A stretch of DNA of 64,000 bases from a virus. Taxonomy: Duplodnaviria; Heunggongvirae; Uroviricota; Caudoviricetes. The stretch is from IMG/VR virus record IMGVR_UViG_3300018488_000300; one strand, 5' to 3'. The notes under the pieces were generated by a model. The model had not been told where the DNA came from and ran no database searches. It saw only the letters and a program-made list of their open reading frames with translations. Each line of letters starts with the position of its first letter. The first letter of the stretch is position 1. The position numbers were made by a program, and so were the translations under genes. Shown here one piece after another: positions 44,490 to 44,571 of the stretch.

Positions 44490-44571
44490 TGCACGTACTG
44501 GGATTCGAACCCAGGATGGCCATGTGCCTCTCGATTAAAAGTCGAGTGCCCTACCACTAGGCGATACATGC
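44490..44571 (-). tRNA. Atypical type-II (long variable arm) tRNA with anticodon loop CTTTTAA (UUU)
   Basis: Acceptor GCATGTA/TACGTGC, anticodon arm CTCGA-CTTTTAA-TCGAG, about 15-nt variable arm, T-arm CTGGG-TTCGAAT-CCCAG. A Lys anticodon on a Leu/Ser/Tyr-type scaffold is non-canonical. Confidence 0.35.

What the first reader, a model, noticed from the sequence alone, without database searches (positions are those of the whole stretch)
44490..44571. Type-II (long variable arm) tRNA scaffold carrying a lysine-type UUU anticodon loop
The gene has a Leu/Ser/Tyr-like architecture with a 3-bp D-stem and a variable arm of about 15 nt (AGGCACATGGCCATC). Its anticodon arm is CTCGA-CTTTTAA-TCGAG, the same loop as the canonical tRNA-Lys 4 nt downstream. 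A UUU anticodon on a type-II body is not a standard bacterial tRNA. It could be an anticodon-swapped decoy or nuclease-evading variant, or a misfolded call.
Basis: seen in the sequence. Interest (0 to 1): 0.6.

Follow-up and report, generated by a model that had tools for sequence, protein, structure and literature searches.

The report
Phage lysine tRNA with extra arm
This is a real, conserved lysine-type (UUU) tRNA gene carrying an extra hairpin arm, one of a widespread but apparently undescribed group in phage tRNA clusters; the arm may protect it from bacterial enzymes that cut lysine tRNA, but that is untested.

Summary
Window 44490-44571 (- strand) is an 82-nt tRNA with a 7-nt CUUUUAA loop (anticodon UUU) and a 15-nt variable region that forms a 3-bp hairpin. 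ARAGORN, the Rfam tRNA model (65 bits) and the free-energy fold all agree.

The "Leu/Ser/Tyr scaffold" reading does not hold. The D-arm is class-I-like (4-bp stem, 7-nt loop) and the discriminator is A73. The same D-arm and anticodon-arm type also occurs in short-variable-loop phage tRNA-Lys.

The gene is not a one-off:
- An identical copy lies in an independent sequencing run.
- 17 further distinct relatives come from 30 viral and metagenome loci. Their variable-arm stem covaries.
- One narrow pattern found 116 IMG/VR loci with long-arm tRNA(UUU), often beside a normal tRNA-Lys(UUU).
- Cultured phages carry such genes, annotated simply as tRNA-Lys or tRNA-Asn (Rhodobacter phage RcXuper; phiKZ-like OMKO1).

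Long-arm copies keep the bacterial-type anticodon stem, while co-resident short copies usually do not. Phages with a long-arm Lys also carry long-arm Asn, Thr, Lys(CUU), Met, Trp and Ile(UAU). An RtcB and Pnkp-like RNA-repair set sits nearby.

Best reading: a functional AAA-decoding tRNA-Lys whose extra arm helps it escape tRNA-Lys-directed nucleases. This is inferred, not shown. I found no paper describing this class.

The parts
44490..44571 (-). Long-variable-arm tRNA-Lys(UUU), 82 nt. Acceptor 44571-44565 / 44497-44491; D-arm 44562-44548; anticodon arm 44546-44530; T-arm 44514-44498; discriminator A at 44490.
   Evidence: ARAGORN; Rfam RF00005, 65 bits; MFE fold; cloverleaf 95.8% paired with covariation score 0.62 vs 0.19 in shuffles across 18 distinct relatives.
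44537..44539 (-). Anticodon UUU (tRNA positions 34-36) within the 7-nt loop CUUUUAA (44541-44535).
   Evidence: The loop and the closing pairs G30-A31 / U39-C40 are invariant in alignment A2.
44515..44529 (-). Variable region AGGCACAUGGCCAUC. Stem GGC (44528-44526) pairs with GCC (44520-44518); 5-nt loop ACAUG; 3' tail AUC.
   Evidence: All three stem pairs change on both sides among relatives (GGC/GCC, GGU/ACC, GGG/CCC, GGA/UCC, AAGC/GCUU, AAUUC/GAAUU).
44576..44649 (-). Canonical 74-nt tRNA-Lys(UUU), 4 nt upstream on the coding strand. Its anticodon-stem closing pairs are GG|CUUUUAA|CC, not the bacterial-type GA|..|UC.
44092..44166 (-). tRNA-Lys(CUU), third Lys tRNA of the array.
43661..45066 (-). 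13-gene tRNA array that contains the target. Gene order is conserved in relatives L251, L254, L260, L263 and L265.
43636..43651 (-). Terminator-like hairpin plus T-run directly after the last tRNA of the array. A promoter-like site lies at 45248-45220 (-) upstream of the first tRNA.
   Evidence: Consensus scan only; function inferred.
38861..40027 (-). RtcB-family RNA ligase (context: RNA repair), in a conserved block with an ATP-grasp R2K protein (40056-40955), a His-phosphatase (41059-41529) and a DNA methylase (42590-43540) next to the array.
   Evidence: Pfam, NCBIfam; synteny kept in L263/L265/L251. Any link to the tRNA is inferred.
2189..3394 (-). Pnkp-like polynucleotide kinase + metallophosphatase protein (context: RNA end-healing).
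   Evidence: Pfam AAA_33 + Metallophos. The best NCBIfam hit is bacterial Pnkp, TIGR04075, but far below its cut-off.

Best explanation
The locus is a functional elongator tRNA of a large low-GC mobile element (a jumbo phage or phage-like element of a Gram-positive host). It reads the AAA codon and is most likely charged with lysine. Its anticodon arm is that of a bacterial tRNA-Lys(UUU) and its discriminator is A73. A 3-bp hairpin has been added in the variable region.

Proposed role of the arm: it changes the shape of the tRNA core beside the 3' strand of the anticodon stem and the D-arm. Host tRNA-Lys-directed defence nucleases that read or cut there would then bind or cleave it poorly, while the anticodon-based identity used by LysRS, the modification enzymes and the ribosome is kept.

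The element would then carry two differently 'disguised' AAA decoders side by side: a short-loop copy with an altered anticodon stem and a long-arm copy with a host-like anticodon stem. It also carries RNA-repair enzymes.

Shown here: the gene is real, conserved and structurally constrained, belongs to a recurrent phage group, and sits in this context. Inferred: lysine charging. Hypothetical: nuclease evasion through the arm.
For: Gene and structure.

Not an artefact: a 100% identical 2.18-kb array lies in an independent run.

Purifying selection:
- Relatives with RtcB only 68% identical at protein level keep the tRNA 98-99% identical.
- In distant arrays it is 88-90% identical, among the best-conserved tRNAs.
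- The variable-arm stem covaries at all three pairs.

Lys type:
- A73 in all 18 relatives, and the segment GA-CUUUUAA-UC is invariant.
- The same D-arm and anticodon arm occur with short variable loops in phage tRNA-Lys.
- The wider long-arm group never has G73 (A73 in 81, U73 in 29). Its members are nearest to Lys(CUU)/Lys tRNAs.

Demand: AAA is the most used codon in the window's ORFs (64.6 per 1000).

Recurrence:
- 116 IMG/VR loci matched one narrow pattern.
- True bacterial hits in genomes sit in dense tRNA arrays.
- Cultured examples: RcXuper tRNA-Lys, 88 nt; OMKO1 and GAP31 tRNA-Asn.

Pattern expected of two escape designs:
- Host-like GA|..|UC closing pairs occur in 67/92 long-arm versus 8/29 co-resident short tRNA-Lys(UUU) (p = 2e-5).
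- Within loci holding both forms, long host-like/short not host-like occurs 17 times and the reverse twice.
- The window fits this pattern.

Target overlap:
- In the same phages, long arms are enriched on ANN decoders including Asn(GUU), Thr(UGU) and Lys(CUU) (OR 3.6, p = 5e-7).
- PARIS AriB cleaves Lys(UUU), Thr(UGU) and Asn(GUU) at 40|41 and contacts the D-loop (PMC12409363).
- A bacterial Schlafen also cuts tRNA-Lys(UUU) in the anticodon stem (PMC13056530).

Precedent: a longer variable loop in phage SP15 tRNA-Tyr is required to neutralise Retron-Eco7 (PMC12673091).

Context: RtcB and a Pnkp-like protein lie in the window.
Against: - There are no cleavage, charging or expression data.
- The anticodon loop is identical to that of the canonical copy. 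Loop-reading nucleases of the PrrC type (from my own knowledge they accept anticodon stem-loop substrates) would not obviously be blocked.
- The long-arm copy retains U39, C40 and U16, which AriB of E. coli B185 uses. Any escape would have to be steric, which is unproven.
- From established structural knowledge, class II synthetases such as LysRS approach from the variable-loop side. A long arm might hinder charging.
- With the arm removed and the anticodon masked, the body does not classify cleanly as Lys (13 of the top 50 matches versus 9.5% background).
- The anticodon enrichment tests are post hoc, run on a conditioned sample, and not corrected for shared ancestry.
- The host and its defences are unknown.
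Confidence: 0.42

Rival explanations
1. Functional tRNA-Lys whose extra arm has no special role. It would be a tolerated insertion, or a scaffold inherited within phage tRNA arrays, and the gene simply adds AAA-decoding capacity for an AT-rich genome.
For: AAA is the top codon. Short- and long-loop versions of the same body both exist. Long arms cluster in a subset of phages (73/696 versus 14/514 in control arrays), which could reflect shared ancestry of array scaffolds.
Against: The stem is kept by compensatory changes across diverged lineages, and the arm is never lost in the syntenic relatives. GNRA-type tetraloops recur (GAAA in 31 of 90), and the regions are more stable than shuffles (-2.5 vs -0.5 kcal/mol). 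The distribution over anticodons is non-random, and long copies keep the host-like anticodon stem.
Confidence: 0.22
2. The arm is a recognition handle that marks phage tRNAs as 'self'. It could serve a phage-encoded partner (processing, modification, charging or repair enzyme). It could also spare them from a phage-encoded tRNase that destroys host tRNAs during takeover.
For: Several different tRNAs in the same phages carry similar short hairpins, often with a GNRA loop and a 3' CAUC-like tail. This co-occurrence looks like a syndrome. RNA-repair and unknown genes flank the array.
Against: No candidate partner was identified. Carriers span unrelated phage groups and hosts with no shared protein noticed. 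The arm sequence is not conserved, only its pairing.
Confidence: 0.18
3. Mischarging or recoding tRNA. The long arm recruits SerRS, LeuRS or TyrRS so that AAA is partly read as another amino acid, as with nematode nev-tRNAs or allo-tRNAs.
For: From established knowledge, SerRS and LeuRS ignore the anticodon. A73 suits Leu and Tyr, U35 is a TyrRS element, and C11-G24 is present. Many members of the wider group have Ser- or Tyr-like D-arms.
Against: G73 is never seen. The window's D-arm is class-I-like with a short 3-bp arm. Both Lys anticodons (UUU and CUU) occur on long-arm bodies, and the Asn, Thr, Trp and Met counterparts keep cognate acceptor identity. AAA is the commonest codon, so misreading would be very costly.
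Confidence: 0.08
4. Non-translating decoy, sponge or pseudogene. A tRNA-like RNA would titrate a nuclease or sensor, or the gene would be a decaying duplicate.
For: It retains the host-like UAAUC segment that AriB reads. It duplicates an adjacent canonical gene.
Against: All helices, the T-loop, G18G19, U33 and A37 are intact, and the Rfam score is among the highest in the array. Conservation equals or exceeds that of neighbouring tRNAs. A decoy needs no intact acceptor end.
Confidence: 0.06

Closest known systems
Phage T5 tRNA-Lys(UUU), which neutralises PARIS (AriB) (PMC11464382, PMC12409363)
   Same: A phage-encoded isoacceptor of the host tRNA most often hit by defence nucleases. It sits in a phage tRNA cluster and differs from the host tRNA in ways that need not affect decoding.
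   Different: T5 escapes through point changes at the cleavage site (U39A, A41C) and distal bases, with a normal short variable loop. The window tRNA keeps U39 and C40 and adds a variable-arm hairpin instead. Resistance is untested.
Phage SP15 tRNA-Tyr versus Retron-Eco7 PtuAB (PMC12673091)
   Same: Variable-arm length in a phage tRNA is the feature that defeats a tRNA nuclease, shown by deletion and chimera experiments.
   Different: That tRNA is class II by nature and the nuclease cuts inside the variable loop. Here a class-I isotype has gained an arm.
Long-arm tRNA-Lys and tRNA-Asn already deposited in cultured phage genomes (Rhodobacter phage RcXuper RCXUPER_36; Ruegeria and Xanthomonas phages; phiKZ-like OMKO1; Cronobacter phage GAP31; Escherichia phage arall)
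   Same: The same architecture: a class-I anticodon, a 7/5 acceptor/T branch, and a short variable-arm hairpin, often with a GNRA loop.
   Different: Most have a class-II-like long D-loop, and some have U73. The window's subfamily has a short class-I D-loop. None is annotated or, as far as I could find, discussed as unusual.
Nematode nev-tRNAs and eukaryotic nov-tRNAs (Hamashima et al., cited in PMC5389517)
   Same: A long variable arm on tRNAs whose anticodons belong to class-I isotypes.
   Different: From my own knowledge, those are Leu- or Ser-type bodies charged regardless of the anticodon. Here the body and acceptor features follow the anticodon's isotype.
allo-tRNAs (Mukai et al. 2017, PMC5389517)
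   Same: Non-canonical long-arm tRNAs with diverse anticodons, some found in phages.
   Different: allo-tRNAs have 8/4 or 9/3 acceptor/T branches and a Sec-like D-arm. The window tRNA is a standard 7/5.

Membership tests
Bacterial class II tRNAs (Leu/Ser/Tyr) | Variable region longer than 10 nt that forms a stem-loop | tested here: met
   15 nt, 3-bp stem and 5-nt loop; covariation at all three pairs.
Bacterial class II tRNAs (Leu/Ser/Tyr) | 3-bp D-stem with a long (about 10-11 nt) D-loop | tested here: not met
   The stem is G10-C25, C11-G24, C12-G23 and U13.G22, with a 7-nt loop AGUGGUA.
Bacterial class II tRNAs (Leu/Ser/Tyr) | Anticodon of Leu, Ser or Tyr; G73 for Ser | tested here: not met
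   Anticodon UUU and A73, invariant in 18 relatives.
Bacterial elongator tRNA-Lys(UUU) | UUU anticodon in the loop CUUUUAA, with U33 and A37 | tested here: met
Bacterial elongator tRNA-Lys(UUU) | Discriminator A73 | tested here: met
Bacterial elongator tRNA-Lys(UUU) | Anticodon-stem segment U36-A-A-U39-C40, as in E. coli tRNA-Lys | tested here: met
   The window has UAAUC-G41. The E. coli motif is U36AAUC|A41 according to PMC12409363.
Bacterial elongator tRNA-Lys(UUU) | Short (4-5 nt) variable loop | tested here: not met
   The region is 15 nt.
Bacterial elongator tRNA-Lys(UUU) | Body scores as Lys in isotype-specific models | tested here: inconclusive
   tRNAscan-SE isotype models were not available. 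A nearest-neighbour proxy gave Lys in 13 of the top 50 matches versus 9.5% background. The same D-arm type is found in short-loop phage tRNA-Lys.
Bacterial elongator tRNA-Lys(UUU) | Charged by LysRS and used at AAA | not testable with these tools
   Needs aminoacylation assays or charged-tRNA sequencing.
Nuclease-evading phage tRNAs (T5 tRNA-Lys type) | Substitutions at the nuclease's recognition or cleavage positions (U39, A41, U16 for AriB B185) | tested here: inconclusive
   U39, C40 and U16 are retained and only position 41 differs (G). The adjacent short copy has C39.
Nuclease-evading phage tRNAs (T5 tRNA-Lys type) | Demonstrated resistance to cleavage and rescue of infection | not testable with these tools
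   Experimental.
allo-tRNA | 8/4 or 9/3 acceptor/T-stem branch | tested here: not met
   7-bp acceptor and 5-bp T-stem.
Intron-containing (archaeal-type) tRNA-Lys | Insert next to the anticodon loop or in a bulge-helix-bulge motif; archaeal host | tested here: not met
   The insert is a plain hairpin in the variable region. The element carries bacterial-type genes (sigma factor, LytR, SecY, choline-binding repeats). The archaeal hits of the genome scan have a different layout.

The most novel reading that the evidence does not exclude
Many phages convert class-I tRNAs into a class-II-like shape by adding a variable-arm hairpin while keeping the anticodon arm and acceptor identity. The tRNAs concerned are Lys(UUU) above all, plus Lys(CUU), Asn, Thr, Met (some with initiator-like features), Trp and Ile(UAU). 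This would be a general counter-defence or self-marking strategy against tRNA-targeting immunity. It would be distinct from the anticodon-loop or stem point mutations known so far, and the window tRNA is one instance.
Probability: 0.35. Interest if true: 0.8.

Novelty: new variant of a known kind. Interest (0 to 1): 0.6.

Why it matters
tRNA-Lys(UUU) is the commonest known target of bacterial tRNA-cleaving defences: PrrC, PARIS and Schlafen-type nucleases. Phage tRNAs are now recognised as counter-defences.

If the extra arm is what protects these tRNAs, several things follow:
- It would be a second, structural route of escape, alongside point mutations.
- It would explain why some phages keep two tRNA-Lys(UUU) genes side by side.
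- It would show that LysRS, AsnRS and other synthetases tolerate a class-II-like core.
- It would give a simple graftable module for making nuclease-resistant tRNAs.

The idea can be tested directly, because cultured phages of Rhodobacter, Pseudomonas (phiKZ-like), Cronobacter and E. coli carry the same kind of gene.

If the arm is neutral, the finding is an annotation curiosity. Gene finders call these genes 'tRNA-Lys' without flagging the architecture.

Tried and rejected
- Near and distant BLAST of the array against INPHARED phages found no close relative, only single-tRNA matches.
- An exact 53-mer of the tRNA had no match in IMG/VR.
- Misfold or shifted anticodon (UAA/UAG): rejected. The covariance model, ARAGORN and the MFE fold agree, and the 7-nt loop is invariant.
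- Assembly artefact: rejected, because an identical copy exists in an independent run.
- Intron: rejected. The genome scan's archaeal hits are intron-containing tRNA-Lys with a different layout.
- allo-tRNA membership: rejected, since the branch is 7/5.
- Simple anticodon mutation of a Leu/Ser/Tyr gene: I noted that most long-arm class-I anticodons are one mutation away from a class-II anticodon. I rejected it as a sufficient explanation because their acceptor stems and discriminators are those of the anticodon's own isotype.
- Ratio of long to short tRNA-Lys(UUU) in IMG/VR: not obtainable. I reused that set as control arrays.
- Isotype classification of the body by nearest neighbours: inconclusive.
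- Nine literature searches found no description of long-arm class-I tRNAs in phages.
- No capsid or terminase gene was found among the window ORFs scanned, so 'phage' versus 'megaplasmid' is unresolved for this contig.

Full report
**1. The observation**

The window holds 30 tRNA genes, all on the minus strand, in two arrays at 43661-45066 and 59727-62535. The target, 44490-44571 (-), is called by ARAGORN as an 82-nt tRNA with anticodon ttt. The Rfam tRNA covariance model matches it end to end at 65.0 bits (E = 3.6e-13). That is the third-best score in the array, and the model places the extra nucleotides as an insertion in the variable region. An unconstrained fold gives the same five-helix cloverleaf (-29.4 kcal/mol, z = -2.57).

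The layout is:
- acceptor GCAUGUA/UACGUGC
- D-stem GCCU/GGGC and D-loop AGUGGUA
- anticodon stem CUCGA/UCGAG and loop CUUUUAA
- variable region A-GGC-ACAUG-GCC-AUC
- T-arm CUGGG-UUCGAAU-CCCAG
- discriminator A73, no encoded CCA

One detail is wrong. The D-arm has four pairs and a 7-nt loop, which is the class-I form. It is not the 3-bp stem and long loop of bacterial Leu/Ser/Tyr tRNAs.

**2. Source and reality of the sequence**

The adjacent methylase protein is encoded on a 235,748-bp ENA metagenome contig, which is the window's source. It is also encoded on a 12-kb contig from an unrelated run, SRR6869094. The 2.18 kb holding the array is 100% identical between the two, so the gene is not an assembly artefact.

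The element has about 33% G+C. Genes identified in the window:
- a sigma factor, a RecD2-like helicase and a primase-like protein
- SecY, signal peptidase, ClpP and a ribosome hibernation factor
- LytR, TelA, a flotillin and choline-binding repeats
- three TnpB/IS605 genes
- an RtcB RNA ligase in a block with an ATP-grasp protein and a His-phosphatase, next to the array
- a kinase plus metallophosphatase protein whose best NCBIfam match is bacterial Pnkp (below cut-off)

I found no capsid or terminase in the window. 'Jumbo phage' is therefore an inference, drawn from the tRNA arrays and from relatives of the tRNA that lie in IMG/VR contigs. The array is bracketed by a promoter-like site and a strong terminator-like hairpin. 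AAA is the most used codon in the window's ORFs (64.6 per 1000).

**3. Close relatives and structural constraint**

A pattern built on the D-arm, the anticodon arm and a long variable region found 6 IMG/VR and 24 metagenome loci. Together with the window this gives 18 distinct sequences.

Five loci (L251, L254, L260, L263, L265) share the window's gene order: Leu, Trp, Gln (86 nt), Glu, Lys (73), Lys (81), Cys, Lys(CUU) and so on. Three of them (L251, L263, L265) also show parts of the methylase, His-phosphatase, ATP-grasp and RtcB block. RtcB is only 68% identical in L263, yet the long-arm tRNA is 98-99% identical. In more distant arrays (L246, L258) it is 88-90% identical, among the best conserved tRNAs there.

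On alignment A2 the cloverleaf is 95.8% paired, with a covariation score of 0.62 against 0.19 in shuffles and at most 0.14 in slid controls. All three pairs of the variable-arm stem change on both sides: GGC/GCC, GGU/ACC, GGG/CCC, GGA/UCC, AAGC/GCUU and AAUUC/GAAUU. The arm is therefore a selected structure. A73 and the segment GA-CUUUUAA-UC are invariant.

**4. A wider group**

The pattern CTTTTAA, then 17-30 nt, then GGGTTCGAATCCC found 116 IMG/VR loci. ARAGORN called 110 long tRNA(UUU) genes of 81-94 nt in them, 90 of them unique. Twenty-nine of these loci also hold a short tRNA-Lys(UUU).

Properties of the group:
- Discriminators are A (81) or U (29), never the Ser-type G.
- Variable regions are 11-21 nt. 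In 72% they form at least 3 bp, often with a GAAA loop (31 of 90). They are more stable than shuffles (-2.5 versus -0.5 kcal/mol).
- With the anticodon masked, their nearest neighbours are mostly long-arm Lys(CUU) and other Lys tRNAs, not Ser, Leu or Tyr.

In species-representative genomes the same pattern hit archaeal intron-containing tRNA-Lys genes, which are a different thing. The true bacterial hits sit in dense arrays of 8-21 tRNAs.

Cultured phages carry such genes under plain annotations:
- Rhodobacter phage RcXuper has an 88-nt tRNA-Lys(ttt).
- Ruegeria, Roseobacter and Xanthomonas phages have full-length matches annotated tRNA-Lys.
- phiKZ-like OMKO1, Cronobacter phage GAP31 and Escherichia phage arall have 84-89-nt tRNA-Asn genes.
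- GAP31's tRNA-Lys has the same anticodon arm as the window's, but an expanded D-loop instead of a variable arm.

**5. Is it a Lys tRNA or a swapped class-II body?**

For the window's subfamily the evidence favours Lys.
- The D-arm is class-I-like.
- The same D-arm and anticodon-arm type occurs in phage tRNA-Lys with 4-7-nt variable loops.
- Removing the 11-nt hairpin leaves a normal 4-nt loop.

A nearest-neighbour proxy for isotype models was only weakly informative.

In the wider group, long-arm tRNAs with Trp, Asn, Thr and Met anticodons keep acceptor and discriminator features that, from my knowledge of E. coli tRNAs, fit those isotypes. Trp copies begin AGG...CCUG with G73. Most Asn copies begin UCC...GGAG. 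Thr copies have G1-C72 and C2-G71. Some Met copies have an unpaired 1:72, which is an initiator-like feature. Both Lys anticodons occur on long-arm bodies.

This argues against plain anticodon mutation of Leu/Ser/Tyr genes and against systematic mischarging. Charging itself remains untested.

**6. Patterns bearing on function**

(a) Long-arm tRNA-Lys(UUU) keep the bacterial-type closing pairs G30-A31 / U39-C40 in 67 of 92 unique sequences. Only 8 of 29 co-resident short copies do (Fisher p = 2e-5). In loci with both forms, 'long host-like, short not' outnumbers the reverse 17 to 2. The window shows exactly this: long is GA|..|UC and short is GG|..|CC.

(b) In arrays chosen for a long-arm Lys(UUU), 73 of 696 other class-I tRNAs are also long. 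They are concentrated on:
- Ile(UAU), 6 of 12
- Trp, 6 of 21
- Asn(GUU), 11 of 43
- Thr(UGU), 8 of 32
- Lys(CUU), 9 of 55
- Met, 8 of 54

ANN decoders are enriched (OR 3.6, p = 5e-7). In 49 control arrays chosen for a short host-like Lys(UUU), only 14 of 514 are long, and 7 of those are Ile(UAU). Long arms are thus a trait of a subset of phages and of particular anticodons.

These tests are post hoc and not corrected for phylogeny.

(c) Literature:
- PARIS AriB cleaves tRNA-Lys(UUU), Thr(UGU) and Asn(GUU) between positions 40 and 41. It reads U36AAUC and contacts the D-loop. T5 escapes through U39A and A41C (PMC12409363).
- A bacterial Schlafen cuts tRNA-Lys(UUU) at 30|31 (PMC13056530).
- The longer variable loop of phage SP15 tRNA-Tyr is required to neutralise Retron-Eco7 (PMC12673091).

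**7. Interpretation**

The most likely account is a functional AAA-decoding tRNA-Lys. Its added arm alters the core next to the 3' strand of the anticodon stem and the D-arm, which reduces recognition by tRNA-Lys-directed nucleases. It is kept alongside a short copy that is disguised differently, and alongside RNA-repair enzymes.

The steps differ in standing. The gene's reality, conservation, constraint and recurrence are shown. Lysine charging is inferred from the anticodon, A73 and the relatives. Nuclease evasion is a hypothesis supported only by pattern, context and precedent.

Points against it:
- The loop is identical to the canonical copy's.
- U39, C40 and U16 are retained.
- The arm may hinder a class II synthetase.
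- The host is unknown.

The rivals are a neutral inherited scaffold, a self-marking handle for a phage factor, mischarging, and a decoy. They are listed with their weights in the Rival explanations section.

**8. Novelty**

Nine full-text searches, together with a review of non-canonical tRNAs and the allo-tRNA paper read from their results, gave no description of long-arm class-I tRNAs in phages. Such genes are, however, already deposited and annotated as ordinary tRNA-Lys or tRNA-Asn.

I therefore rate this tRNA as a new variant of a known kind (phage counter-defence or supplementary tRNAs). It belongs to a recurrent group that appears to be uncharacterised. The library searched is incomplete, so prior description elsewhere cannot be excluded.

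Noticed in passing
window 44818-44904 (-): An 87-nt tRNA-Gln(UUG) with a roughly 20-nt AT-rich variable region (AAAUAUCAAUAGAUUU) and a typical Gln-type D-arm. It is conserved at 94-95% in the syntenic relatives. This is a second class-I anticodon on a long-arm body in the same array.
   Followed up: partly
window 61657-61745 (-): An 89-nt 'tRNA-Ile(UAU)' call with a 6-bp variable-arm stem but an odd anticodon arm: a 4-bp stem and loop AAUAUAU, with A at position 33 instead of U. ATA is a frequent codon here (29.6 per 1000). Whether it is functional is unclear.
   Followed up: partly
L017, L024, L038, L066, L092, L097 and control arrays L270-L389: Long-arm tRNA-Ile(UAU) genes are common in phage arrays (6 of 12 and 7 of 11 unique sequences). 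Those printed from the first set share a conserved variable-arm loop motif, (C)AGAUUAG. Some have a short D-arm that resembles allo-tRNAs.
   Followed up: no
window 38861-41529 (-) and 2189-3394 (-): RtcB ligase, ATP-grasp (R2K) and His-phosphatase genes form a block beside the tRNA array, conserved in relatives. A separate Pnkp-like kinase-phosphatase lies further away. Together they look like an RNA break-repair kit.
   Followed up: partly
window 49653-50975, 5347-5913, 48889-49485, 48147-48665, 53154-54467, 54570-55787, 31221-32765: The mobile element encodes cell-type genes: SecY, signal peptidase S26, ClpP, ribosome hibernation factor, LytR-CpsA-Psr, TelA and a flotillin. No capsid or terminase was seen in the 64 kb.
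   Followed up: partly
window 27242-28585, 29180-30292, 57972-59216 (-); small TNB fragment 51700-52059: Three TnpB/IS605 OrfB-type genes lie in one 64-kb window. One of them sits between the two tRNA arrays.
   Followed up: no
window 44718-44792 (-) and 59875-59950 (-): ARAGORN draws the tRNA-Glu(UUC) with a badly paired T-stem. It draws the tRNA(CAU) with only 3 anticodon-stem pairs. Both may be degenerate or non-standard.
   Followed up: no
L240 372-458 (Cronobacter phage GAP31): The annotated 87-nt tRNA-Lys has the same anticodon arm as the window tRNA (CUCGACUUUUAAUCGAG). It has a normal variable loop and a roughly 20-nt D-loop expansion instead. ARAGORN does not call it.
   Followed up: partly
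L038, L043, L046, L091 (IMG/VR): These are long-arm tRNA(CAU) genes with an unpaired 1:72 position. The L038 copy also has a GGG/CCC run at the base of the anticodon stem. Both are initiator-like features, on a class-II-like body.
   Followed up: no
L119-L238 (genome scan): Many Nitrososphaerales, Woesearchaeota and other archaeal hits are intron-containing tRNA-Lys(UUU) genes. They match the same length pattern and could be mistaken for long-arm tRNAs.
   Followed up: partly
L115 / L257: ARAGORN calls a 90-nt tRNA with a CUA anticodon (labelled Pyl) in arrays that also hold a long-arm Lys(UUU). It may be an amber suppressor.
   Followed up: no
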